Shown here: positions 13,442 to 25,563 of the stretch, in pieces
How the letters are laid out: each line of letters begins with the position of its first letter
How positions within the stretch are numbered: the stretch's first letter is position 1
DNA from: Escherichia coli
GTDB lineage: Bacteria > Pseudomonadota > Gammaproteobacteria > Enterobacterales > Enterobacteriaceae
DNA: 64,000 nucleotides
Strand: one strand, 5' to 3'
NCBI RefSeq assembly: GCF_048403405.1
Contig: NZ_CP183129.1
Notes under the pieces: model-generated
Databases searched by the model: none
What the model saw: the letters and a program-made list of their open reading frames with translations, nothing else
Told to the model about the DNA's origin: nothing
Program-made: the position numbers and the translations under genes

Positions 13442-13708
13442 ATGGCATTACTCGATTTCTTTCTCTCGCGGAAGAAAAACACGGCCAACATTGCAAAAGA
13501 ACGGCTGCAGATTATTGTTGCTGAACGCCGTCGCAGCGATGCAGAACCGCATTATCTGCCGCAGTTGCGTAAAGATATTCTTGAGGTCATTTGTAAATAC
13601 GTACAAATTGATCCTGAGATGGTAACCGTACAGCTTGAGCAAAAAGATGGCGATATTTCTATTCTTGAGCTGAACGTGACCTTGCCGGAAGCAGAAGAGC
13701 TGAAATAG
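13442..13708 (+). CDS. minE: Cell division topological specificity factor MinE
   Basis: 88-aa [34 protein letters not shown]... Confidence 0.95.
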
Positions 13709-13736
13709 GCCCGCTGTAAAAGCGCATTTCTCTTCA

Positions 13737-13768
13737 AGGCAGAGTCATCTCTGCCTTGCGTTTTTCAT
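13737..13768 (+). terminator. Intrinsic terminator after minCDE
   Basis: aaggcagagtcatctctgcctt hairpin followed by gcgttttt. Confidence 0.6.
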
Positions 13769-14072
13769 CCCCCTCATCCACGTTTGATAAGAGCGGCGAG
13801 TATTCTTGCTGATGCTACTCATTGCTTCCCCCCTTTACACCTTAATGCCGTTCCCCCCACACAGATCAAATTGTTTATACCTGGCTGAGTAAATAACCTT
13901 ATTGTTAGTATGGGTATACTGGGTGATGATAACCCCGCAATTTCATTATTCATTGTTCTCCCATAGGATGAGGTTTCCCGCCGTAACTGGCGGGCTTTTT
14001 TTGCCGCAGAATTTTTCCTTTTAACACCCTGTAAACGAAAACTGCGCCGAAGCGCAGTTTAATCGTTGATGG

Positions 14073-17000
14073 TCAGAACGACCAGTTCGCACCAGCCACC
14101 GCGTTCCACGGGGATTCCACACCGGCACCATGGCTATACCCCACCCCGAGATGCCCGCTTAACGAACTGCTGAATGAGGCTTTAATACCTGCCTGATATA
14201 TTCCACGTCTGCCCGACAAATCATTGACAAAATTACCGTCATTATTCACTTTCACCCGGTTATCATCGACAAATTCTTTGCGCACAGCCGCCTTCAGCCA
14301 CGGCTCAACTTCCATGCCGTTCCCCAGACGCATGTTGTAACTCAGCGTTGCGCCCAGTTCACGATATATACTGCGGGTATCGACTGATTTCGATTCCATG
14401 CCATTGGATAAATGATATTCGGGGTTATCAGCGGTGAACCCCGTTAACGATGCATACGGCGTCAGGTTCCAGTTACCATCGGTAAATCGCATCCCGGTTT
14501 CAATGTGCCCCCCCAGCCCGTTGCTATGATAACTGCCGTTGGCGGCTCCACCGCTGCTCATTTTACCGGCTACGTTACTTTCAAAGCGGTTCAGCTTCAC
14601 GATACCGTCCAGATAGAAACCACTTTCATGTTCCCAGCTGGCATAGCCCCCCAGAGAATAACTGCCCACACTGCCATGTCCTCCACGATCAAAACCGATA
14701 TGTGAATGGGAATAACCCATAAAAGCGCCCAGCGTCGCAATCCCCTCAGGAATATCATTACGACTGTCGATCCCCACTGTCATTCCGGTCAGCGTCTGCT
14801 CAAACCCGGCACCCGCATCGGTGGTGACATTATTACGGGTGTTATACGTCGTCCCCCAGACATTATTGTTGTGTGGACTCGCTTTCATTATGTTCAACCG
14901 CTCGCGAATACTGTTTAGCTCAGCATCAAAGACCAACGGTAATGTTGCTGCCATATTGAGTACGGCAGCCGTAGAAGGCGTGATGCGTTTCTCCGGAACG
15001 GGTGTCGGCGTTGGCTCGGGAGTCGGGTCTGGATTTGGATTTGGATTTGGATTTGGATTTGGATTTGGGTTCGGATTTGGATTTGGATTTGGATTTGGGT
15101 TCGGATTTGGGTTCGGATTTGGGTTCGGGTTCGGGTTCGGATTTGGATTTGGGTTGACATTATTAGTCAGGTTCCAGTTGCTGTTGCCGTCGCTTTTCAG
15201 GACATACTCATAGGTCCCAAGATCAACGAAACCGCCGGTATTGCCCAGCGTAAACGACGCATCCCCTCCCCCTGTTTTCACCAGCGTCATCGCATCGTCA
15301 GACTGAGGGCTGACGCCGGTATCCTGAACAAAGATTTTAAAATTACCAGTGGCGTTGTTGTTGACGATCAGTTGATCGCCCCGGGAGCCTGCAACGTTGG
15401 TATGCAGGTAGAAATTACCGCTGCCGGAAAGTTCACTGGTGGTCAGCGTATTGTAGATATCGTTAGTTGTGGCAGGCGCTGATAAATAAACATCACCGTC
15501 GTTGAGTAGCAAACTGTTTACTCTATATTCGCAGTTGCTGGTGCCTGCACAGGAATTATTGCTGTTAAGCCAGACACTGCCCCGGCTGGCAGCCGTCAGG
15601 TCGGCAAGCGTCGTATCAACGCCATTGCCGATAGTGAATGTCGCGCTATCGGTAATCCGGATCGCCCCTTCGAGTTTAACTGGCGTAACATTATCCCGTG
15701 GCGTCATTAACGACAGGCTTCCTGTCGCGCCACTGACCGATGCATCCGCCAGCGTACCTGCGTAGACGATTGCCGTCCCACCAGAGACCTGTAGATCTTC
15801 TGCCCGGGCCAGAGCCTGAAACTCATCTTTTGACCGCCCAAGGGTATATTGCCCACCAGAGTTAACCTTTGTGGCGGAGTCCTGACCCAGGTTTTGCATT
15901 GCACCACCCTTGTCAACCGTGGAGTCACGGGCTTCGGTACCTGCTAATACCAATAAATTACCGCCATTTTCCAGCAACATATTGGTCGCTAAATTGCTGG
16001 CAATGGAAAAGGTGCCGTACTGGTGCGTACCGCTGATTTCAATACCGTTAGCCGTGCTCGTCTGGAGAGCGGCACCGCTGTTCTGGACGATATCTGTCGC
16101 TTTGCCATTATCGTTGACTGTCAGCGTTCCGCCTTCATTGATCGTTGTTTTTATTGCCTCTCCGTTAGCTGAAACTGTTTGTATTCCGCCGTCGTTAATT
16201 GTTGTCTCATTTGCCACACCCTCGATGATTTGTTCACCGCCAGTGAGCGTCGTGCCTGTCGCAGTGGCTTTTGTTTTGACGATCTCCCGACCGCCCGCAT
16301 TAACCTGTGTTTTGGCGGAAGTGGTGTCTGACTCCACGGTTAACACGCCGCCATTTGTCAGCAGGATATTGTTCGCCGCACCCTGCTCGATGCTGAACGC
16401 GACGCCATCAGCGCGTGTCCCTGTGACCCGCGTCGCCCTGGTGGTTGCAACCAACGCGCCCTGACTACTCTGCTGTATCCCCGTTGCGCTGCCTTTCTCC
16501 CGCACATCGAGTATGCCGCCATTGTTAAGTCTGGTGGTATATGCTACGGCCTCCTCGTGGACAATCAGCTTACCGCCAGCATCAACGATGGTATCTACCG
16601 CCGAGGTTTGAGCTACGACCGTCAGTTGGCCGGTATTTTCCAGCACAACATGCTCAGCCCTGCCTCCGGTAATAGTGAAGTGAGATGACCTCTGGTATCC
16701 ATCAATATCAGTCCCCGCGCCCGTATTGGCAACTAAAGCGCTCCCCGTGTCCAGGTAAACCCCATGTGCGATACCGCCGGTATCGACAATCAGCGTGCCT
16801 CCGGCGCGAATATTGCTGCCAGTTGCCGTACCTCCTTTCTCAACAACCTGCTTGCTCCCGGAAGAGATATTTGTTGTGTCAGCTTTCCCGCCGCTCTTGA
16901 TATTTTGCGTGCCACTGTTGATATTGGTTCCCGTAGCAATACCATGATTATAAATATTCTGTGTACCGCCATTAATTATGGTATTAGTCGCGTTCCCGGC

Positions 17001-17441
17001 AACATCCATGGCCCCGCCGTTATCTATTCGGGTCGCATCAGCTTTAGCATTCGTTAAAACTGACATTGTTCCTTTATCGTTAATTATCGTCCCTGTAGAA
17101 ATTCCTCCCTCACTAATTGTCTGGCTGCCACCGTTAATGACTGTATTATTAGCCTGCCCCTGATAAGAGCCATGACCAGATACCTCTTGATGTCCACCAG
17201 TATCAATAACACTTCCATTAGAAATCCCGCCATATACCTCCTGATTGCCGTGATTGATGATATGAGCATTATTTGTTGTACCTCGTTCATCTACTCTTTG
17301 GCTGCCGTCTACAGTCTCATCATTTACAACGCCAATAACATTAGAAGTGAAGGCCGTCATCCCAGGCGGGGCATATATCATGGCAGCTATCAATAAGGAA
17401 AGTACTGAGCGGTGAAAATAATAGCGACTGATTCTGTTCAT
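14073..17441 (-). CDS. Type Va autotransporter adhesin (intact; positional equivalent of the K-12 ycgI pseudogene)
   Basis: 1165-aa ORF; N-terminal signal peptide (MNRISRYYFHRSVLSLLIAAMIYA), long Gly/Thr/Asn-rich passenger with repeated GG-x-x-I/V motifs, (NP)n linker, C-terminal beta-barrel ending ...GANWSF; start chosen at internal Met with RBS, ORF extends to 17570. Confidence 0.75.
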   Translation of the reverse strand: MNRISRYYFHRSVLSLLIAAMIYAPPGMTAFTSNVIGVVNDETVDGSQRVDERGTTNNAHIINHGNQEVYGGISNGSVIDTGGHQEVSGHGSYQGQANNTVINGGSQTISEGGISTGTIINDKGTMSVLTNAKADATRIDNGGAMDVAGNATNTIINGGTQNIYNHGIATGTNINSGTQNIKSGGKADTTNISSGSKQVVEKGGTATGSNIRAGGTLIVDTGGIAHGVYLDTGSALVANTGAGTDIDGYQRSSHFTITGGRAEHVVLENTGQLTVVAQTSAVDTIVDAGGKLIVHEEAVAYTTRLNNGGILDVREKGSATGIQQSSQGALVATTRATRVTGTRADGVAFSIEQGAANNILLTNGGVLTVESDTTSAKTQVNAGGREIVKTKATATGTTLTGGEQIIEGVANETTINDGGIQTVSANGEAIKTTINEGGTLTVNDNGKATDIVQNSGAALQTSTANGIEISGTHQYGTFSIASNLATNMLLENGGNLLVLAGTEARDSTVDKGGAMQNLGQDSATKVNSGGQYTLGRSKDEFQALARAEDLQVSGGTAIVYAGTLADASVSGATGSLSLMTPRDNVTPVKLEGAIRITDSATFTIGNGVDTTLADLTAASRGSVWLNSNNSCAGTSNCEYRVNSLLLNDGDVYLSAPATTNDIYNTLTTSELSGSGNFYLHTNVAGSRGDQLIVNNNATGNFKIFVQDTGVSPQSDDAMTLVKTGGGDASFTLGNTGGFVDLGTYEYVLKSDGNSNWNLTNNVNPNPNPNPNPNPNPNPNPNPNPNPNPNPNPNPNPNPNPNPNPDPTPEPTPTPVPEKRITPSTAAVLNMAATLPLVFDAELNSIRERLNIMKASPHNNNVWGTTYNTRNNVTTDAGAGFEQTLTGMTVGIDSRNDIPEGIATLGAFMGYSHSHIGFDRGGHGSVGSYSLGGYASWEHESGFYLDGIVKLNRFESNVAGKMSSGGAANGSYHSNGLGGHIETGMRFTDGNWNLTPYASLTGFTADNPEYHLSNGMESKSVDTRSIYRELGATLSYNMRLGNGMEVEPWLKAAVRKEFVDDNRVKVNNDGNFVNDLSGRRGIYQAGIKASFSSSLSGHLGVGYSHGAGVESPWNAVAGANWSF
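15029..15156. repeat. Hexanucleotide tandem repeat (ggattt/gggttc)n encoding an (Asn-Pro)~21 linker inside the autotransporter
   Basis: Direct reading: about 21 consecutive 6-nt units; translated on minus strand as NPNPNP...NPDPTPEPTPTP. Confidence 0.9.
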
Positions 17442-18046
17442 AAATTTCATCCTCTGAAAAATGAATACTGAGTAGCGTCTAAGTAACCTAAGCTCGGCTG
17501 CAACATCAGCCCGCAGGCACCAGACCAGGGGATTCATCCTGAAGAGACAGCGCAGGTGTATTGTGTTCACCGCTCACCAAAGACATCATGATGAAATGAT
17601 GATATCCCGCATAAGAAAGAGGCATTTTTTAAACGCAGTGCGCTGAAGTGTAGTTGGATAAAAAATCACTCTTTTCAGATAATACTGTCGTACGCTTATC
17701 TTTCGACAATGAGGCCGTCGGCAAAATAAAATGACTAATGTAATCGTTGCTGATGAATATCTTCTGCTCACATAAAAATCACACAATAATATTGATAAAT
17801 CAGATTATCTTACCTTTACAACATTGCGTTAACAGTCAATGACACTTCTTGAATAAAAATATTGTCAATCAATGAGTTATTTCTCATTTGAGATTATTCT
17901 CATTCCCGTAAAAAACATAATTCCTATCATCACCGTCACGCTCATTTTGAATTATCTGAATAATAGCGAGCGTTCTTTAGTTAAGCAGATCTTAATTGAA
18001 GACGAAATTATTGTGTGTGCAACTTACTTAATACCGGACATCTAAG

Positions 18047-18391
18047 TTGAAGAAAAAAATACTTGCCTTCGGGCTTATCTCAGCATTGTTCTGCTCCACG
18101 CCAGCGATGGCGGATATGAATCGCACCACGAAAGGTGCATTGCTAGGCGCAGGCGTTGGTTTACTTACTGGCAATGGTGTTAATGGCGTACTGAAAGGTG
18201 CAGCTGTTGGCGCTGGTGTTGGTGCAGTAACAGAAAAAGGCCGCGACGGTAAAAATGCGCGTAAAGGTGCAAAAGTGGGTGCCGCCGTTGGTGCTGTCAC
18301 TGGCGTTCTGACCGGCAATGGCCTCGAAGGGGCGATTAAAGGTGCCGTGATTGGCGGTACGGGTGGTGCAATTCTGGGTAAAATGAAATAA
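18047..18391 (+). CDS. ymgG: Glycine-zipper small protein YmgG (UPF0757)
   Basis: 114-aa ORF, signal peptide plus Gly/Ala/Val-rich repeats (GAxVGAxxG); TTG start as in track. Confidence 0.7.
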
Positions 18392-18394
18392 GGA

Positions 18395-18730
18395 ATGATG
18401 ATGAAAAAATTTGCTTTACTGGCGGGTCTGTTTGTTTTCGCACCAATGACCTGGGCGCAGGACTACAATATTAAAAACGGTTTGCCGTCAGAAACCTATA
18501 TTACTTGCGCAGAAGCCAACGAAATGGCAAAAACTGACAGCGCACAGGTTGCAGAAATTGTTGCGGTAATGGGTAATGCCAGCGTTGCCAGCCGTGATTT
18601 AAAAATTGAGCAATCTCCGGAACTGAGCGCCAAAGTGGTAGAAAAACTGAATCAGGTTTGCGCTAAAGACCCGCAAATGCTGTTGATCACGGCAATTGAT
18701 GACACCATGCGTGCTATCGGCAAAAAATAA
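18395..18730 (+). CDS. ymgD: Periplasmic protein YmgD
   Basis: 111-aa ORF with signal peptide MKKFALLAGLFVFAPMTWA; two-codon gap after ymgG. Confidence 0.7.
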   Translation: MMMKKFALLAGLFVFAPMTWAQDYNIKNGLPSETYITCAEANEMAKTDSAQVAEIVAVMGNASVASRDLKIEQSPELSAKVVEKLNQVCAKDPQMLLITAIDDTMRAIGKK

Positions 18731-18752
18731 TATTTAATATGTTACCGCGTCG

Positions 18753-18777
18753 ATGAATTCGACGCGGTATTTTAGCT
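18753..18777. terminator. Hairpin between convergent ymgD and downstream autotransporter
   Basis: accgcgtcgatgaattcgacgcggt palindrome followed by atttt. Confidence 0.5.
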
Positions 18778-18785
18778 AACGGGGA

Positions 18786-21434
18786 TCAGAACTTATATTT
18801 CAGGCCCACCATCACTGCGGTGTCATTGTAGCCATTATCACCCAGCTGCACGCCCACATTACCCCAGACGCTGGCCGCCGGATTCAGATTGCCATTTACG
18901 CCAAGTTTAATTTCCCCCAGATTACGCGCCCCGTCTTGTTCAACTTTCACACCGTTCATTGAGACAGCAAAATCTTTACTGTTATGGATCCAGTTCATTT
19001 CAACAAAAGGTTCAAAGTCGTCACCGTGCGGACCGCTGTTTTTCTCCTGAGTACGAATAAAGGTACGGAAGCCGAGTCGGGTCTGGATGTTGTTATTTGC
19101 GTCATTCTCAATACGTGAGCCATTGGCTTCCGTGTGCGCATTATGATCGACGCCCATCCAGATAGCCTGTGCCTGTGGCTGGAAGATCCACGTATATTTC
19201 GCCGCTTCCAGACCAAAGGATTTATTCAGGGCAAAACCGTAACCCGCTTCCAGCGAGACGGTTGCACCTTTCGCGCTATAGGATTCATAGGCTAACTCAT
19301 CCCCTTTCACCGAGTTTTTAAACCAGCTATATTGCGCCCAGGCGTCAATGTATGCGCCTTTTTTACTGATGTCATCGGCAAACCAGGTGGCATACAGCCC
19401 TGCGCTATAGCCTCTGACACTCCCTTTCGAACGATAATCCGACACGCTGGAATGAGTTGAGTTGTAGTCGCGGGCATAACCAGCCATCACTCCCAAACGC
19501 CAACTGTCACTGTCGGTAAAACCACCGGTTAACAGATCCGCCCCTAACTGCGAGACGTAGCGATGCGAGGTCGTTCTCAACTGTCCGTTGCTGTCACGCC
19601 AGGCATTATGCCCGCCAATTTGACGTAGCCAAAGTCGGCTTGAACGCTCCTGTTCAGTTACAGGATCGATGTAGCGCGTTTCACCTGCACGATCGTTCAG
19701 ACGCATAACAAAAAGAGTGTTAGCGGCTGCCAGATTGGCGACGTAACTTCCAGCTTCGGGGCGCAGGACGGGGGTAGGCGCAACAGTAGGCGCTGAACTT
19801 CCTCCGGAGTTTGTTTCACCGCCGCTCGTTGCCTGGAAGTTAGTCAGATACCAGTTTTTATTGGTCGCTTCGGTATTACCTCGGGTTAATGAATATTCGT
19901 AGGCACCGGCGAAAATCCTCGAATCCTTAATAAATTCCCCATTTGATTCCCCCTCAACGCTGATAATCTCTATCCCATTTAACGTGTAAGCCCCGCTGCC
20001 CCCAGCATTGGTAACTTTTACTCGGGTTGTTCCGGAGGTATTTCCATTAATAACAACTTTATCAGTAGCTGAATTATCATCACCCAATTCAGTTCTGAGA
20101 TGCAATACGCCATTATTACCAACGTAATTTTCAGTTATTGTTAACCTTGTTGGTTCGAAATCCTTTCCATCTGCCCGGGAAATATAGACCGTACTATTGT
20201 CAACCGTGAGCTTGCTCACCGTTGAGTCAGTTTTAATATCCCAGGTACTATTATCTGAAAGCGACAGATAGGTATGAGTGCTATCATCTGTTGAAAGATT
20301 GGCTGAACCCGTTATTTTTGAATTAGATGCATCGATGGCCAAATGACCTTTAATATTATTAATAAAAACATCTGCAGCCGATGATACCTCACTATCCGTA
20401 ATGGTCACGTTACTCGTCTCATTTTTATTGTAGAGGATTTCATTTGCTGACCGTAGTGAGCTACCAGATAAAATATCTACCGTTGCTTCCTGACCATTTA
20501 TGGAAGACTCCAGCACAATTCCAGCCCCCTGATGCGCGACTGCAGATGTATTTTTCAGCGTCACCTTGCCGCCATTATAAATTTTAGCAATCGCGGCGTC
20601 AGGACCCGTTGTATGAATTTCTCCCTGGTTAAATGAAACAGTCCCCTGGCGAGCAGCGATGGCATGAGCATTGTCCCCATACGTGGTAATATCAACATCG
20701 GTTAATGTAACGCTGGCATTGGTATAATCAAGCTTGCTACCCGCCTTGACGACAGTGCCATTAGCGTAAGCGGCATAACTTTCTGTTCCGAGGGTTGTTA
20801 TCTCCCCTTTTGCCATATCCAGTTTTGCTTTGGCGTTATTTTCATTACTTCCTGTATCGGCAGTACTTTCTTCATCAAGAGAAGATACACACGCACGCGC
20901 GCTTCCGGGAGATGCACAAGCAAGAACGCCGACTGCGTGATTACCCGCAGTAACAATAAAAGTATTACCTTCGTCAGATAAATGGGGGTTAACCGAACCG
21001 TCAGTGTTGACTCTTATTATGGTATCAGTATTCAGGTTTCCATTCGTTTGACTTAGCAAACCAATTGAGTAATCCCCCGTTGTGACAATCGTATTATTAC
21101 CCTGCAAAATAACTGCACCGCCATATTCACTTACGACTGCGCTAGCTGTATATACTGTGCTTAGAGGATTATTGCCAGAAGGATATAAACCACCCGTTGT
21201 TACAATGACGCCTTTGTTAATGGTTAAATTGCTACCCTCTCCTGCAACAGATACCCCGTAACTTCCATTACCCGTTGTTATAACTAGCGCATTATCAATA
21301 TCTTTTACTTCTCCATCTTTTATTGCCACAGCATGTTTATATTCATCGTACTGAATAAACTGTTCAGCATATGCATTACCCACCGCCAGAGCAATAAGTC
21401 CTAAACTAAACCCGGGGAGTTTTTTCAGTTTCAT
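18786..21434 (-). CDS. Type Va autotransporter (intact; positional equivalent of the K-12 ycgH pseudogene)
   Basis: 882-aa ORF; signal peptide MKLKKLPGFSLGLIALAVGNAYA, passenger domain, C-terminal beta-barrel ending ...VGLKYKF. Confidence 0.75.
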   Translation of the reverse strand: MKLKKLPGFSLGLIALAVGNAYAEQFIQYDEYKHAVAIKDGEVKDIDNALVITTGNGSYGVSVAGEGSNLTINKGVIVTTGGLYPSGNNPLSTVYTASAVVSEYGGAVILQGNNTIVTTGDYSIGLLSQTNGNLNTDTIIRVNTDGSVNPHLSDEGNTFIVTAGNHAVGVLACASPGSARACVSSLDEESTADTGSNENNAKAKLDMAKGEITTLGTESYAAYANGTVVKAGSKLDYTNASVTLTDVDITTYGDNAHAIAARQGTVSFNQGEIHTTGPDAAIAKIYNGGKVTLKNTSAVAHQGAGIVLESSINGQEATVDILSGSSLRSANEILYNKNETSNVTITDSEVSSAADVFINNIKGHLAIDASNSKITGSANLSTDDSTHTYLSLSDNSTWDIKTDSTVSKLTVDNSTVYISRADGKDFEPTRLTITENYVGNNGVLHLRTELGDDNSATDKVVINGNTSGTTRVKVTNAGGSGAYTLNGIEIISVEGESNGEFIKDSRIFAGAYEYSLTRGNTEATNKNWYLTNFQATSGGETNSGGSSAPTVAPTPVLRPEAGSYVANLAAANTLFVMRLNDRAGETRYIDPVTEQERSSRLWLRQIGGHNAWRDSNGQLRTTSHRYVSQLGADLLTGGFTDSDSWRLGVMAGYARDYNSTHSSVSDYRSKGSVRGYSAGLYATWFADDISKKGAYIDAWAQYSWFKNSVKGDELAYESYSAKGATVSLEAGYGFALNKSFGLEAAKYTWIFQPQAQAIWMGVDHNAHTEANGSRIENDANNNIQTRLGFRTFIRTQEKNSGPHGDDFEPFVEMNWIHNSKDFAVSMNGVKVEQDGARNLGEIKLGVNGNLNPAASVWGNVGVQLGDNGYNDTAVMVGLKYKF

Positions 21435-21833
21435 AGATTAACCATCCATTCATTGGATTAACAAACATTCCTGGTCAAATAACCTATGAGTTCAGATTAC
21501 CAAAACGGAGGGTAAAGACAAAAACAAAAGCACAAGAAATTTAAATAGATAAACAGCGACAATACATAAATGATAAATAAGTCAGCATTATCATTTTTCA
21601 CCTTATTTTCATGACATTGATCACTTTGGAGTGACGATTTTGTTTAACAAATAACTCTTCGACATCAAAATTATTAATAGTTGCCATGGGAATTATTTCG
21701 ATGATATATAAAAACAACTGTGATAACACCAGGGTTGGCAACTATTTGCGCAATAATACCTTTCCTTCAATGATCCAGGCGTTCACTGCCAGCAACCCAT
21801 TCAGCCGCATACTGACAGTGAGAAACTGAAAGA

Positions 21834-22052
21834 TTAGTGCTGATCCCTGTGGCTGACGAGTCTTTCCCTTAATCGATTAACCAGATTGATCGCCAGCCAA
21901 ACAAGGGCATTAAGCAAATTTATCGTCACAAGCACTTCTCCCAGCCCGGTACTGGGTTTTGCAATAAGGATGACCAGGAGAGTGATCAGCATAAATGCAA
22001 TGGAAAAGATGATATAGAGAGTGAAATAATCCAGATTATTACTATTGTTCAT
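21834..22052 (-). CDS. ymgF: Small inner-membrane protein YmgF
   Basis: From MNNSNNLDYFTLYIIFSIAFMLITLLVILIA... (72 aa, two TM helices); ORF in track extends to 22088. Confidence 0.6.
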   Translation of the reverse strand: MNNSNNLDYFTLYIIFSIAFMLITLLVILIAKPSTGLGEVLVTINLLNALVWLAINLVNRLRERLVSHRDQH

Positions 22053-22183
22053 GCTACTAATGGCAATCCTGTCAAAACTTTCAAACAATTATAGCAAACA
22101 AAATAATGAACAATAGTAACAAGAGGCAACGAGCTAATTAGCTGTCTATAATTACACCGCACTATGGCCTTACTGATCGATTT

Positions 22184-23707
22184 TTACTCAACCACAACCT
22201 TCACCTTCGGTTTAGAAAGGATAATTTTGACCAGGTCGATGTATGTTACCGGTTTATAGAAATAATAACCCTGCTGAAATGTGATATTATTTTGATTCAG
22301 ATAGTCAAGTTGTTCTTTCGTTTCGACACCTTCAGCGACGATACTGATCGAAAGTTTACGCGCCAGATCCAATACACAATCCAGAATCCGAGTTGATTCT
22401 GGGTCTGCGTTTACGCGGCCAACGAAACTGTGATCAATTTTGATATAATCAATATGCAGGTCATGCAGATAAGAAAGCCCTGAGTAGCCAGTACCGAAAT
22501 CATCCAGCGCAATGACAAAACCATTTTCATGCAGAATGTTCAACCGCTGAACCAGACTTTCATCAACATTTAATGGCTCACGCTCGGTAACTTCCAGAAC
22601 GAGGTTTAAATCGCGACGGGTAAAACTGTCACGGTAATTTAAGCACTCGTCGACAAATGTCGGCGAAATAATATGCGAGGCGCTAAAATTAATCCCAATA
22701 TGAAAACCTTCCGGCAGTTTACTCGCGATAGCGTTCATCTGTCTGGCAACCTGATTCATCAGGCTTCGCGTAAGCGGAACGATTAATCTGGATTTTTCAG
22801 CAAGTGGAATAAATGCCGCGGGTGATATATATCCACCGTGAGGTTGTTTCCAGCGGGCTAACACCTCAACTCCCCGCAATGTCCCTTCCCGACCATTTAC
22901 CACAGGTTGGTAAAATGGGACGATCTCCCCATTATTTATAGCCCGTCGCAGGATCTCTTCAGGCGTTGCGCTTTTATTGAAATACCTATCAAGCAGGAAG
23001 GCAGCGGCGCAGGCGATTAACAGAATAAATATCAAAATCCCAAAGCCTTTATCGATAAGTCTGTAGAAGCTAAAGAGTGGCGGCGGGTTAAAGATAATAG
23101 TGAAATGATATTTTGTGGAGTGAACCTTCTCGGTATAGGGATAGTGTCCATTAAGCGTCATCACATCACCCGTAGGTCCAATAATGTCATCTGCCACGCG
23201 TAATACATACCTTACCCCTTTCAAGGGTACATTAAGCGCCCCGCGAATATGCTGATCACTTATCGTAACCAAAATGCGCGTATCTGCAAATTGGCTCTGA
23301 TAGAGCAGGATAGGTAATCTATTAACGGTGTCGATTGCCGGAGCCAGCAGTAAATTACTGTCCGGGAAAACAGGAATACGAGACAGTAGGACCCGATTCC
23401 CCGGTAAGGATGTACACCAGACCGTTCCCTGTTTGAGAATGATGATTGTGCGCAGGTGAGGTTTCAGAGCTGCTTCAGTGCCAAGCTGATATTGCTCCTC
23501 GAGGTCGCATTCCTTCCCGGCAATGTTAACCGCCGTTTGAGTCGCCTGTGACGCTTCTTCAAGTATATGATTGATATTGTTGGCGGCATATCTTGCTCCC
23601 GCCAGGTACTCTGCTTTTGCGAAATACCAGAGCTGGATGTTCAAAATAGTGACACCGGTTATAAACAAGCATATCGCAATGAAGATGGGTATGAGTGTAT
23701 TGCGCAT
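22184..23707 (-). CDS. pdeG: c-di-GMP phosphodiesterase PdeG (YcgG); CSS-sensor plus EAL domain
   Basis: N-terminal TM/periplasmic region and C-terminal EAL domain; start trimmed to MRNTLIPIFIAICLF. Confidence 0.75.
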   Translation of the reverse strand: MRNTLIPIFIAICLFITGVTILNIQLWYFAKAEYLAGARYAANNINHILEEASQATQTAVNIAGKECDLEEQYQLGTEAALKPHLRTIIILKQGTVWCTSLPGNRVLLSRIPVFPDSNLLLAPAIDTVNRLPILLYQSQFADTRILVTISDQHIRGALNVPLKGVRYVLRVADDIIGPTGDVMTLNGHYPYTEKVHSTKYHFTIIFNPPPLFSFYRLIDKGFGILIFILLIACAAAFLLDRYFNKSATPEEILRRAINNGEIVPFYQPVVNGREGTLRGVEVLARWKQPHGGYISPAAFIPLAEKSRLIVPLTRSLMNQVARQMNAIASKLPEGFHIGINFSASHIISPTFVDECLNYRDSFTRRDLNLVLEVTEREPLNVDESLVQRLNILHENGFVIALDDFGTGYSGLSYLHDLHIDYIKIDHSFVGRVNADPESTRILDCVLDLARKLSISIVAEGVETKEQLDYLNQNNITFQQGYYFYKPVTYIDLVKIILSKPKVKVVVE

Positions 23708-24042
23708 TTGCTTGTCCCGGCCAAAGGGTTTAATACATGAAAATGCCATTCATTCGCTCGCACTGGCATCTACAGAGAGCATGGTAGAGAGCATAAGAAA
23801 TATCCACGCTGAAGATAAAATTTTCTCCATCTTCATCTAACCTATTAATTATTGAGCACAATGTAGTCAGAATTAAACAAATTAGGTGGGATATCAGGCG
23901 TCAAGAATGGAAAACGAGCGCTCTCCATTCCTGTTTGCCCCCTGATATTGCGGATATATTAAGAAAGCATAACGCCTGAAATGCTCACTTTGCACCAGCA
24001 TGATGATACAGCTGATGTTTATTCTATAACCTTACTCAAGTT

Positions 24043-24291
24043 CTAAGAGAGCACTGATTCCCTGTCATTAATAATGATATCCGTTAGTGTAGTCTTATGC
24101 ATTTCAATGTACTGCAAGATTTGCAGATAGAGATCAGAAAGAATCACACTAGTTTCATCTTTTAAACGCAAGCGTAAAGCCTTATCAATAATATGACTAT
24201 CAACATACCCGTGCGTCATGAGCACCTCCCTCTCGAGATTTTTAAACAAAGCACATTGAAAAATAAATCTCTCGGGGATTGAATTATTCAT
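24043..24291 (-). CDS. ymgC: YmgC
   Basis: Last gene of the ycgZ-ymgA-ariR-ymgC cluster; start trimmed to MNNSIPERF. Confidence 0.65.
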   Translation of the reverse strand: MNNSIPERFIFQCALFKNLEREVLMTHGYVDSHIIDKALRLRLKDETSVILSDLYLQILQYIEMHKTTLTDIIINDRESVLS

Positions 24292-24403
24292 GTCAGCCTC
24301 GTAGGAATATTGACCCAATAAAATTATGCTGTGTATAGTCTAAAGCGACAGACAAAAATAAGATGACTGAGTTTTCTATAAACTTATACTTAATAATTAA
24401 AAG

Positions 24404-24670
24404 TTACATATCATCAGCTGTGTATCGCAACACGATTTCCAGTGTTTTTCTAATCACATCAGCTTTGAGAATATCACTTGTTGTTTCCAGAGAGTGTATC
24501 AGACTTAAGATAATATTTTTATTATTAACATTATCGCCTGAAAGCATTAAATTGGTCACAGCCTGCCCTAACACAGCTGACTCTTCTTCTAACAAATTAC
24601 CTGAACTACGAAAGTAGCTTGATAACGCTTTATCAGTTATTGCATTATGAATTGTAGTATCTTCAAGCAT
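24404..24670 (-). CDS. ariR: Biofilm/acid-resistance regulator AriR (YmgB)
   Basis: 88-aa [41 protein letters not shown]... Confidence 0.75.
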
Positions 24671-24698
24671 GGTAACCTCTCATCTTACTTATGAAATT

Positions 24699-24971
24699 TT
24701 AATGTATTCTGTTTATTTTCTTACCATTGAACATACTTTTATTGTCAGCTATCGCTGTTCTTCTGTTTGGCTCTCCTGTATCACTGTTGCTAAAATCACG
24801 AATTATGCTGTCAATTAAATCTCGTCGGAAAGCATTTTCCTCAACCGATTTCATTACGAGTAATTGCTTAATAAGAGTCTGTAACGAAAAATTTATCTTC
24901 ATGCGCAGTATATGGAGCACCGCCTGGCCAGTAATTTCATATTTTGTACTTTCATTATCAGATGTTTTCAT
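24699..24971 (-). CDS. ymgA: Two-component connector protein YmgA
   Basis: 90-aa ORF in the ycgZ operon; AT-rich. Confidence 0.7.
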   Translation of the reverse strand: MKTSDNESTKYEITGQAVLHILRMKINFSLQTLIKQLLVMKSVEENAFRRDLIDSIIRDFSNSDTGEPNRRTAIADNKSMFNGKKINRIH

Positions 24972-25013
24972 AACGACTTCATAGCTAACCTGTTAAATAA
25001 TCAGGCTGTTGCA

Positions 25014-25250
25014 TTATTCAAAAAGCAACCCAATTAGTGCATTATAATGTTTCTGTTCCTCTTCCCCTGTCGCTTGTTCCAGTCGGCATAGAAGTTTGGC
25101 ACAAAGCGACTTTCGACTCAGATTACGTCCATCTTTCAAAATCTCAGTCACAATTTCCCCGAGAGTTTCCTGCTGAGTAGGCAAGTTAGCTTTTGCAAAG
25201 TAACGAGTGATTGCTCCCGCAGAATCTAAAGTCACTGAATTTTGATGCAT
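25014..25250 (-). CDS. ycgZ: Two-component connector protein YcgZ
   Basis: 78-aa ORF; divergent from bluF. Confidence 0.7.
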   Translation of the reverse strand: MHQNSVTLDSAGAITRYFAKANLPTQQETLGEIVTEILKDGRNLSRKSLCAKLLCRLEQATGEEEQKHYNALIGLLFE

Positions 25251-25563
25251 GCTACGCCTCTGTTAAAAATGTTAATCAATGTTAAGTGAGGTAACAATAG
25301 CAAACTTGTACGAAATATGTGTACAGAATGATAAATTAATTTTTTGCATTTAGTGCTAATACATATAAAACAACAGGTTATGATAAAAAATATTGCATCA
25401 TTTAAATGACAACCTATACAAAAATTTTCGCCAACTCATCTTCAACTTTTTCCATTTTTTATCAATGTAAAGAAACAGTTATGTTTTGGTATTAAAAGAA
25501 AGACACCGGAAGATATGTCTGTTACCGTCTTACTCTCGCCTCTCCCATTACCCTGGACAGTTA

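What the first reader, a model, noticed from the sequence alone, without database searches (positions are those of the whole stretch)
18786..21434. Second intact autotransporter at the ycgH position
This is an 882-aa ORF with signal peptide and C-terminal barrel, at the position where K-12 carries a split pseudogene. Together with the neighbouring autotransporter and the ymgG/ymgD periplasmic proteins, this strain retains a surface-protein cluster that the laboratory strain has lost.
Basis: partly seen in the sequence, partly recalled or inferred. Interest (0 to 1): 0.3.

Follow-up and report, generated by a model that had tools for sequence, protein, structure and literature searches.

The report
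Intact variant autotransporter at ycgH locus
This E. coli strain has an intact gene for a surface-displayed "autotransporter" protein where the lab strain K-12 has a broken one, but its exposed part is a different, already catalogued variant, so the finding is real but ordinary.

Summary
The 882-codon ORF at 18786-21434 (minus strand) is real and uninterrupted. It has every hallmark of a classical type Va, AIDA-I-type autotransporter: a 23-aa signal peptide, a beta-helical passenger, an autochaperone domain, a linker helix and a 12-strand barrel.

It lies at the K-12 ycgH position, and K-12's copy is broken. However, it is not simply the intact form of K-12 ycgH. The upstream spacer, signal peptide and translocator (aa 552-882) are 97-100% identical to YcgH. 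The passenger (aa 24-551) is only 44% identical in protein and about 55% in DNA, with sharp junctions. NCBI and VFDB already treat it as a separate family, "ECIAI39_1904 family autotransporter adhesin", and this exact protein occurs on 192 public contigs.

Among 5,426 complete E. coli genomes, about 33% carry this passenger type and about 61% the YcgH type. Roughly three quarters of all copies are inactivated by independent lesions, so intact copies like this one are a minority.

Passenger type does not track the flanking background, which indicates cassette exchange. A third passenger type sits at the same locus in another Escherichia lineage.

The function (probable adhesin, probably H-NS-silenced) is inferred, not shown. 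Known kind, low interest.

The parts
18786..21434 (-). Complete CDS, 882 aa plus stop: ECIAI39_1904-family type Va autotransporter at the ycgH locus
   Evidence: ORF with no internal stop. (domains). (the identical protein WP_000768532.1 / P0270 is named ECIAI39_1904 family autotransporter adhesin and occurs on 192 contigs).
21366..21434 (-). Signal peptide codons 1-23 (MKLKKLPGFSLGLIALAVGNAYA|EQ). This is the 5' conserved anchor shared with YcgH.
   Evidence: Read from the sequence. 23/23 aa and 67/69 nt are identical to YcgH. AF2 pLDDT is below 50 for residues 1-32.
19782..21365 (-). Passenger, aa 24-551: the divergent cassette. Predicted right-handed beta-helix with GC 43% and GC3 35%.
20889..20918 (-). 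The only two cysteines, C173 and C182 (ACASPGSARAC): a putative small disulfide loop, followed by an acidic, low-confidence insert.
   Evidence: The Cys pair is conserved in all three Escherichia passenger types. It is also present in distant relatives, which include proteins named by their sources as Providencia, Enterobacter and Stenotrophomonas. pLDDT is 54-71 over residues 171-200.
21254..21257 (-). G4 tract (gene nt 178-181), intact here. A G4-to-G3 slip at this point is the frameshift that inactivates this allele in at least 1,400 complete genomes.
19887..20225 (-). Autochaperone domain (AC_1), aa 404-516, lying inside the divergent cassette
   Evidence: Pfam PF18883, E = 6e-30. IcsA autochaperone 3ML3, E = 1e-20. 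57% aa identity to the YcgH autochaperone.
18786..19781 (-). Translocator, aa 552-882 plus stop: linker helix (aa 559-573, window 19716-19760) and 12-strand barrel (aa 600-881), ending ...GLKYKF. This is the 3' conserved anchor.
21435..21833 (-). 399-nt AT-rich (34% GC) spacer between ymgF and the gene, presumed to hold the promoter and silencing region
   Evidence: 385/399 nt are identical to K-12. In K-12 the homologous spacer is reported to hold a sigma-70 promoter with H-NS binding (PMC3946193), and a sigma-S ChIP peak is assigned to ycgH (PMC4447067). No convincing consensus promoter was found here.
18743..18769 (.). 11-bp-stem GC-rich hairpin between the convergent ymgD and autotransporter stop codons. 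Likely a shared terminator, with a clear T-run only on the + strand.
14073..17570 (-). Neighbouring intact autotransporter at the K-12 ycgI position. It has AIDA repeats and is a ypjA/ehaD paralogue. The likely true start is near M41/M44 of the 1165-codon ORF.
18047..18730 (+). ymgG (18047-18391) and ymgD (18395-18730), convergent with the autotransporter. Both are also present in K-12.

Best explanation
The ORF encodes an intact classical (type Va) monomeric autotransporter of the AIDA-I structural type. It belongs to the already-named 'ECIAI39_1904 family' and sits at the ycgH locus of an E. coli chromosome.

**Allelic relationship.** It is an allelic alternative to YcgH, not its unbroken form. 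The two share the upstream spacer, the signal peptide and the translocator at 97-100% identity. Between two sharp junctions they carry different ~530-aa passengers that are homologous but only 44% identical. The junctions fall at the signal-peptidase site and at the start of the linker.

**Mechanism (inferred from the family).**
1. The 23-aa signal peptide directs Sec export.
2. The C-terminal 12-strand barrel is inserted into the outer membrane by BAM.
3. The passenger is threaded out C-terminus first, and the autochaperone segment nucleates folding of a pertactin-like beta-helix.
4. The linker helix plugs the pore.

**Likely role and regulation (inferred).** The passenger has no protease, lipase or AIDA-repeat module, so the most likely role is a surface adhesin or biofilm factor. 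It probably stays covalently attached. It is probably H-NS-silenced in laboratory culture.

**Population context.** The locus is a recombining passenger-cassette polymorphism. Most lineages have inactivated it, and this strain is in the minority with an intact copy.
For: **Shown here: gene integrity and architecture.**
- The ORF is intact.
- AC_1, Pertactin and Autotransporter domains are present.
- The AF2 model has pLDDT 84.6 and shows a beta-helix, a helix and 12 strands.
- The passenger's nearest solved structures are Vag8, pertactin and UpaB.

**Shown here: locus and mosaic.**
- The gene order is syntenic with K-12 ycgH.
- Signal peptide 23/23 aa, passenger 219/498 aa, translocator 328/331 aa identical to YcgH. 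The nucleotide mismatch density changes abruptly at gene nt ~70 and ~1654.
- The identical protein is named ECIAI39_1904 family and is seen on 192 contigs. It is a VFDB label (PMC5654935).

**Shown here: population.**
- This passenger type is in 1,786 of 5,426 genomes and the YcgH type in 3,294.
- Independent lesions: a G4-to-G3 frameshift in at least 1,400 genomes, an O157 nonsense at codon 326, other stops and frameshifts, the K-12 nonsense in at least 1,493 genomes, and B2-type decay.

**Shown here: recombination.**
- The flanks of K-12 (Y-type) are closest to SE11 (W-type), at 98.6% and 99.8%. The window's flanks are closest to E700025 (Y-type), at 98.7% and 99.5%. The passengers of the two types differ by ~45%.
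- A third N-terminal passenger type, carrying a YcgH-like autochaperone segment, sits at the syntenic locus of another Escherichia lineage.

**Inferred.**
- H-NS silencing. The spacer is 34% GC and 96% identical to the K-12 spacer, where H-NS binding is reported. H-NS represses other E. coli autotransporters (PMC3966885).
- No AIDA-I-type self-cleavage. The equivalent of AIDA-I E897 is Ala477, although the D878 equivalent, D458, is kept. The roles of those two residues are from my own memory of Charbonneau et al. 2009.
Against: - No expression, secretion or binding data exist for this protein or for YcgH in the searched literature. The adhesin role rests only on fold class and on the absence of enzymatic domains.
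- No signal-peptide predictor was available.
- No convincing sigma-70 promoter was located in the spacer. The published K-12 hexamer string could not be found in either K-12 or the window.
- At least 79% of carriers of this allele have a frameshift. That argues the gene is often dispensable, so it may be non-functional even when intact.
- The recombination inference rests on five strains plus one outgroup, not on a full phylogeny.
- The fraction of intact copies is a sample-based estimate: 5 intact of 10 labelled records inspected.
Confidence: 0.8

Rival explanations
1. One reading: this is simply the intact, ancestral form of the gene that K-12 carries as the split pseudogene ycgH, so the same gene is unbroken here.
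For: It occupies the same locus with the same neighbours. The signal peptide, the translocator and 96% of the upstream spacer are identical or nearly so. The gene lengths are almost the same, 2649 versus 2648 nt.
Against: The passenger is 44% identical in protein and ~55% in DNA to both K-12 ycgH and intact YcgH. Repairing the K-12 lesions yields the 887-aa-type YcgH passenger, not this protein. PGAP assigns the two to different named families.
Confidence: 0.08
2. The ORF is intact but functionally cryptic: a silenced gene drifting towards pseudogenisation that has not yet been hit in this lineage and has no current role.
For: Roughly three quarters of complete genomes carry an inactivated copy at this locus, through at least six independent lesions across both allele types. 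The upstream spacer is AT-rich and H-NS-associated. ST131 lacks the gene.
Against: - Intact 882/892-aa forms persist in several sub-lineages at 90-99% passenger identity.
- The Cys loop and autochaperone motifs are conserved across very divergent alleles, which implies past purifying selection.
- The locus is retained intact in another Escherichia lineage.
Confidence: 0.3
3. The protein is a self-associating autotransporter (SAAT, like Ag43, AIDA-I or TibA) whose main activity is cell-cell aggregation.
For: The translocator and autochaperone are AIDA-I-type. The genomic neighbourhood is rich in biofilm and c-di-GMP genes: pdeG, ycgZ-ymgA-ariR-ymgC, bluF and bluR.
Confidence: 0.12
4. The passenger is an enzyme or toxin, for example a glycan-degrading beta-helix, a protease or a lipase, and not an adhesin.
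Against: Those matches have 7-13% identity and score below the autotransporter passengers, which is generic beta-helix similarity. There is no Peptidase_S6, GDSL or other catalytic Pfam or NCBIfam hit.
Confidence: 0.05

Closest known systems
YcgH (E. coli; intact 887-aa form, for example WP_000768550.1; K-12 b4491 is the pseudogene)
   Same: Same chromosomal locus and neighbours. The 23-aa signal peptide is identical, the translocator is 99% identical and the upstream spacer is ~96% identical. The overall architecture and length match, and the Cys-x8-Cys loop is conserved.
   Different: The passenger (aa 24-551) is only 44% identical: 41% before the autochaperone and 57% within it. NCBI names it as a different family. 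The two types have different lineage distributions and different inactivating lesions.
ECIAI39_1904 family autotransporter adhesin (NCBI PGAP name and VFDB gene label)
   Same: The exact protein sequence carries this name in NCBI and UniRef and occurs on 192 contigs. Other family members are 90-99% identical over the passenger, as 882- or 892-aa forms.
   Different: Nothing structural. No functional study of the family was found in the searched literature.
AIDA-I (E. coli adhesin involved in diffuse adherence; transport unit PDB 4MEE)
   Different: - The passenger has no 19-aa AIDA repeats, and no adjacent heptosyltransferase gene is present.
- The signal peptide is short (23 aa), not extended.
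- The equivalent of AIDA-I E897 is Ala, so AIDA-I-type autoprocessing is doubtful (combined with my own knowledge of the residue roles).
Pertactin, Vag8 (Bordetella) and UpaB (UPEC CFT073) passengers
   Different: Sequence identity is only 18-21%. The ligand-binding features of those proteins cannot be mapped onto this one. The conserved Cys loop is specific to this subfamily.
Mosaic, allelic passenger variation in Ag43 (flu) classes
   Same: A conserved translocator carries divergent, recombining passenger modules within one species (general pattern; PMC10058404 listed but not read in detail).
   Different: This is a single fixed chromosomal locus with two sharply distinct E. coli passenger types. 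It is not a multi-copy, island-borne gene with phase variation.

Membership tests
Classical (type Va) autotransporter, AIDA-I structural type | N-terminal Sec signal peptide | tested here: met
   By inspection only, since no predictor was available: MKLKK, a 14-aa hydrophobic core, then AYA|E. AF2 pLDDT is below 50 for residues 1-32.
Classical (type Va) autotransporter, AIDA-I structural type | C-terminal 12-strand beta-barrel (PF03797) with a terminal aromatic residue | tested here: met
Classical (type Va) autotransporter, AIDA-I structural type | Alpha-helical linker plus autochaperone (AC_1) preceding the barrel | tested here: met
   PF18883 E = 6e-30. Helix at aa 559-573. IcsA autochaperone 3ML3 E = 1e-20.
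Classical (type Va) autotransporter, AIDA-I structural type | Beta-helical passenger | tested here: met
Classical (type Va) autotransporter, AIDA-I structural type | Actual secretion and surface display | not testable with these tools
   Requires experiment.
YcgH (NCBI 'autotransporter YcgH') | Located at the ymgF / ymgD locus | tested here: met
   Synteny with K-12 and with strain E700025.
YcgH (NCBI 'autotransporter YcgH') | Full-length close identity to YcgH, including the passenger | tested here: not met
   The passenger is 44% identical in protein (219/498) and ~55% in DNA. PGAP gives this protein a different family name.
ECIAI39_1904 family autotransporter adhesin (NCBI) | Carries NCBI's family name, or is near-identical to named members | tested here: met
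   The identical sequence (WP_000768532.1 / P0270) carries this name. Named members are 90-99% identical. No HMM of that name was returned by the NCBIfam scan, so NCBI's own naming rule could not be re-run here.
Self-associating autotransporters (AIDA-I, Ag43, TibA) | AIDA-type imperfect repeats in the passenger (PF16168 / TIGR04415) | tested here: not met
   Absent from this protein. The same scans detected them in the neighbouring autotransporter.
Self-associating autotransporters (AIDA-I, Ag43, TibA) | Self-association or aggregation phenotype | not testable with these tools
   Requires experiment.
AIDA-I-type autoprocessing | Two acidic junction residues (AIDA-I D878 and E897; residue roles from my memory of Charbonneau et al. 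2009, a paper not held) | tested here: not met
   In the 4MEE alignment, D878 aligns with D458 (conserved) and E897 aligns with A477. The index mapping (chain index + 817) lands exactly on D and E in AIDA-I, which supports the mapping.
SPATE or other enzymatic autotransporters | Peptidase_S6, GDSL lipase or another catalytic passenger domain | tested here: not met
   No such Pfam or NCBIfam hit.

The most novel reading that the evidence does not exclude
The ycgH locus may be a long-lived, modular passenger-cassette polymorphism of the genus Escherichia. At least three N-terminal passenger modules and two autochaperone modules swap on one conserved signal peptide and translocator. On this reading the polymorphism is maintained by balancing or diversifying selection on an exposed antigen or receptor, for example through host immunity or phage, while individual lineages repeatedly switch the gene off by mutation. 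The conserved Cys-x8-10-Cys loop would mark the functional site of a wider, uncharacterised passenger subfamily whose named members come from Providencia, Enterobacter and Stenotrophomonas.
Probability: 0.3. Interest if true: 0.35.

Novelty: already known. Interest (0 to 1): 0.15.

Why it matters
**Practical value: annotation hygiene.**
- 'Intact ycgH' is the wrong label. Two or three non-interchangeable passenger types share one locus and one translocator.
- The PGAP product names do not indicate whether a copy is intact.
- The published count of ECSE_1215 as an intact autotransporter in SE11 appears to be an artefact of a frameshift.

**Biological value.** The locus is a compact example of passenger-cassette exchange combined with recurrent gene inactivation in a core-genome surface protein. 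This is relevant to anyone using autotransporter presence or absence as a virulence marker or vaccine antigen. It does not reveal a new kind of system, and function remains untested.

Tried and rejected
- **K-12 promoter string.** I searched for the published K-12 promoter string TTGACA-19-TATAAG. It is absent from both the window and the K-12 spacer, so it was not used. The consensus promoter scan gave nothing convincing in the spacer.
- **Rfam.** A scan of window 13500-25500 found no RNA family.
- **PDB sequence search.** The N-terminal passenger (aa 24-401) has no meaningful hit.
- **Literature.** 'ycgH' appears only as a K-12 pseudogene or neutral integration site, in 16 papers with no functional study. 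'ECIAI39_1904' appears only in a VFDB-based heat map. A 2025 UPEC autotransporter review does not mention it.
- **AIDA-I autoprocessing.** The Charbonneau 2009 paper is not held, so the roles of D878 and E897 remain my own recollection.
- **PGAP product names as a proxy for intactness.** Rejected: 5 of 10 records labelled 'ECIAI39_1904 family' are flagged as pseudogenes.
- **Apparent low-identity patches between K-12 and intact YcgH.** These appeared in the three-way alignment and are gap-placement artefacts. The pairwise alignment shows only 65 substitutions and 2 indels.
- **Phase variation at the G4 tract.** Considered and rejected. The tract is short, and the same deletion is fixed in at least 1,400 genomes that share the SE11-like sequence, which fits inheritance and not switching.
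- **Large collection scans.** I did not run the metagenome or GTDB genome scans. Exact look-ups had already located the outgroup locus.
Full report
**1. Observation**

The six-frame ORF list shows a single uninterrupted ORF at 18786-21434 on the minus strand: 882 codons, from ATG to TGA. Direct translation confirms there is no internal stop, and the plus-strand frame is full of stops.

The N-terminus, MKLKKLPGFSLGLIALAVGNAYA|EQ, reads as a standard 23-aa Sec signal peptide with an A-x-A cleavage motif. This is from inspection of the sequence, since no predictor was available.

Domain scans:
- Pfam finds Autochaperone type 1 (aa 404-516, E = 6e-30), Pertactin (aa 406-531) and the Autotransporter beta-domain (aa 601-860, E = 6e-41).
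- NCBIfam finds the generic barrel domain TIGR01414 (E = 2e-111). Matches to MisL, AIDA-I, ShdA and YfaL are partial, cover mainly the C-terminal part, and fall below each family's cut-off.

The strand, which the finding did not state, is minus.

**2. Where it sits**

A 3.3-kb query is 100% identical to E. coli TUM14771. Over about 21 kb the window differs from that genome by one 6-nt indel and one SNP.

The gene order is minC-minD-minE, a second autotransporter, ymgJ, ymgI, ymgG, ymgD, this gene (convergent with ymgD), ymgF, pdeG, then ymgC-ariR-ymgA-ycgZ, bluF and bluR.

K-12 has the same order. In place of this gene it carries 'ycgH, frameshifted; internal stop', and at the second autotransporter's position (ycgI) it has only a 344-bp barrel remnant. 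K-12 keeps ymgG and ymgD, with identical proteins.

**3. It is not the unbroken form of K-12 ycgH**

K-12-type records cover only about 52% of the query at megablast level. PGAP names the window's protein 'ECIAI39_1904 family autotransporter adhesin', while other strains carry an intact 887-aa 'autotransporter YcgH' at the same spot.

The window protein compares with intact YcgH as follows:

| Region | Identity to YcgH |
|---|---|
| Signal peptide, aa 1-23 | 23/23 aa; 67/69 nt |
| Passenger before the autochaperone, aa 24-403 | 41% aa |
| Autochaperone, aa 404-516 | 57% aa |
| Whole passenger, aa 24-551 | 219/498 aa (44%) |
| Translocator, aa 552-882 | 328/331 aa; 985/996 nt |

- At DNA level the 500 nt upstream are 93-100% identical in 60-nt windows. 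Identity collapses to about 50% at gene nt ~70 and returns to 95-100% at nt ~1654-1666.
- The 399-nt spacer to ymgF is 385/399 identical to K-12.
- The passenger is AT-richer than the translocator: GC 43% versus 52%, and GC3 35% versus 54%.

The two genes therefore share promoter region, signal peptide and translocator, and carry different, anciently diverged passenger cassettes.

**4. Population picture (5,426 complete E. coli genomes)**

- The window-type (W) passenger is present in 1,786 genomes.
- The YcgH-type (Y) passenger is present in 3,294 genomes. Of these, 2,108 cover at least 80% of the query. The remaining ~1,186 mostly match only the 5' half. That class includes Seattle 1946, where the locus is broken into fragments.

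Inactivating lesions are numerous and independent:

| Lesion | Where seen |
|---|---|
| G4-to-G3 slip at gene nt 178-181, stop at codon 70, leaving 69-aa and 773-aa ORFs | SE11; the exact 71-mer carrying the deletion is in 1,400 of the 1,781 genomes matching that 71-mer (a lower bound) |
| TCA-to-TAA at codon 326 | O157:H7 strain 1130 |
| Other stops and frameshifts | CLSC36, MINF_1A, AST217, C325 |
| Stop at codon 507 plus a 1-nt deletion at nt 2589 | K-12; the exact 71-mer with the stop is in 1,493 genomes, including BL21(DE3) |

Of 10 records labelled 'ECIAI39_1904 family' that I inspected, 5 are intact. This implies:
- At most about 381 genomes (7%) can have an intact W-type gene, and probably about half that number do.
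- Roughly three quarters of all genomes carry a dead copy of one type or the other.

In the wider protein collection, the exact window protein occurs on 192 contigs. Truncated 773-aa forms dominate the W-type clusters.

**5. Evidence for cassette exchange**

In 1.5 kb upstream, 1 kb downstream and the translocator, K-12 (Y-type) is closest to SE11 (W-type), at 98.6% and 99.8% in the flanks. The window strain (W-type) is closest to E700025 (Y-type), at 98.7% and 99.5%. The W and Y passengers are about 55% identical, and passengers within the W type are 94.7-95.6% identical. Passenger type is thus decoupled from the local background.

A third variant, P0121 (880 aa), lies at the syntenic locus (pdeG-ymgF-AT-ymgD-ymgG-minEDC) of another Escherichia lineage. 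That lineage is 92.4% identical in minD DNA and 84% in translocator DNA.
- Its N-terminal passenger is about 40-50% identical to both W and Y.
- Its autochaperone segment is 88-100% identical to the Y type, which is higher than its translocator in most windows (80-95%).

The passenger is therefore itself modular, and the locus predates E. coli.

**6. Structure and mechanism**

An AlphaFold2 model built from a 40-sequence alignment is confident, with mean pLDDT 84.6 and pTM 0.78. It shows a disordered stretch at residues 1-32, a beta-rich passenger at 34-531, a helix at 559-573 and 12 long strands at 600-881.

- **N-terminal 378 aa of the passenger.** There is no sequence relative in the PDB.
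- **Domains absent.** No protease, lipase or AIDA-repeat domain is present. The neighbouring autotransporter does have AIDA repeats.
- **Mechanism.** It follows from established knowledge of type Va secretion and was not tested here: Sec export, BAM-mediated barrel insertion, C-to-N passenger translocation with autochaperone-templated folding, and a linker helix in the pore.
- **Cleavage.** In the 4MEE alignment, the equivalent of AIDA-I D878 is conserved (D458) and the E897 equivalent is Ala477. If my recollection of those residues' role is right, the passenger is probably not self-cleaved. The source paper is not held.

**7. Regulation (inference)**

The 399-nt upstream spacer is 34% GC. For the near-identical K-12 spacer, genomic SELEX reports a sigma-70 promoter and H-NS binding (PMC3946193), and a sigma-S ChIP-seq peak is assigned to ycgH (PMC4447067). 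H-NS is known to repress other E. coli autotransporters (PMC3966885).

I could not locate the published hexamers. No Rfam family is present. A GC-rich hairpin at 18743-18769 lies between the convergent stop codons.

**8. Relatives beyond Escherichia**

An exhaustive profile-free search found 2,067 proteins at E <= 1e-3 but only 23 at E <= 1e-30. Most share only the autochaperone region. Those that align over the whole passenger include proteins named by their sources as Providencia, Enterobacter and Stenotrophomonas.

These relatives share the only two cysteines of the mature protein, a C-x8-10-C loop: window C173 and C182, in 'GVLACASPGSARAC'. The loop is followed by an acidic, low-confidence insert in the model. 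Its role is unknown.

**9. Comparison with what is known, and verdict**

The protein meets every sequence and structural criterion I could test for a classical AIDA-I-type autotransporter. It fails the YcgH membership criterion on passenger identity, and it is a member of the already-named ECIAI39_1904 family.

No functional study of either family was found. One VFDB-based survey notes that ECIAI39_1904 is absent from ST131 and present in ST38, ST405 and ST648.

- **Observation:** confirmed.
- **Interpretation:** partly supported.
- **Novelty:** already known.
- **Interest:** low (0.15).

The modest added value is the documented mosaic and the decay pattern. There is also a likely mis-call in the SE11 genome paper, which lists the signal-peptide-less 773-aa fragment ECSE_1215 as an intact autotransporter.

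Noticed in passing
window 14073-17570 (-): The neighbouring intact autotransporter at the K-12 ycgI position is a paralogue of ypjA/ehaD, and PGAP even names it ypjA. Its passenger matches two places in TUM14771. K-12 strains match it only at ~93%, at the true ypjA locus. Matches of at least 95% identity, which represent this copy, occur in only ~444 of 5,426 complete-genome records. The 1165-codon GTG ORF probably starts at M41/M44 (MKFMNRISRYYFHRSVLSLLIAAMIYAPPGMTA).
   Followed up: partly
L005 (E. coli SE11) 1732-4379; corresponds to window 18786-21434: The SE11 genome paper (PMC2608844, Table 4) counts ECSE_1215 (773 aa) among the 'intact' autotransporters. It is in fact the downstream piece of this gene after a 1-nt G-tract deletion. 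It starts at a TTG equivalent to about aa 110 and has no signal peptide, so it should not be exportable. At least 1,400 complete genomes share this lesion.
   Followed up: yes
window 20889-20918 (-); alignment A1: The only two cysteines of the mature protein form a C-x8-C motif (ACASPGSARAC). The motif is conserved in YcgH, in the third Escherichia variant and in distant full-length relatives, some named as Providencia, Enterobacter and Stenotrophomonas. It marks an uncharacterised passenger subfamily. An acidic, low-pLDDT insert follows it.
   Followed up: partly
L016 (GCA_004211955.1, RHJI01000009.1) 3326-5968: In another Escherichia lineage (minD 92.4% nt identical) the syntenic locus holds a third N-terminal passenger type. 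Its autochaperone segment is 88-100% identical to the E. coli YcgH type, which is more conserved than its translocator in most windows. This suggests separate exchange of the autochaperone module. That lineage lacks the ycgI-position autotransporter.
   Followed up: partly
window 15029 and 22633: Over ~21 kb the window differs from TUM14771 (NZ_CP128875.1) only by a 6-nt indel inside the neighbouring autotransporter and one SNP in pdeG. The source is therefore a near-identical but not identical strain.
   Followed up: yes
window ~29.4-30.7 kb (by offset from L001 19966-21216): In the near-identical TUM14771, icd is intact and directly follows iraM. K-12 has the e14 prophage remnant (mcrA, pinE) and a partial icd copy at this point. 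This is a known K-12 feature and was not examined in the window itself.
   Followed up: no
L004 (Seattle 1946) 8555-9448: In this strain pdeG is also annotated as truncated ('missing N-terminus'), alongside the decayed YcgH-type autotransporter fragments. Decay at this locus therefore extends beyond the autotransporter in that strain.
   Followed up: no
L003 (E700025) 2896-3231: A strain with an intact YcgH has ymgD annotated as a pseudogene ('internal stop'). This is a single observation.
   Followed up: no
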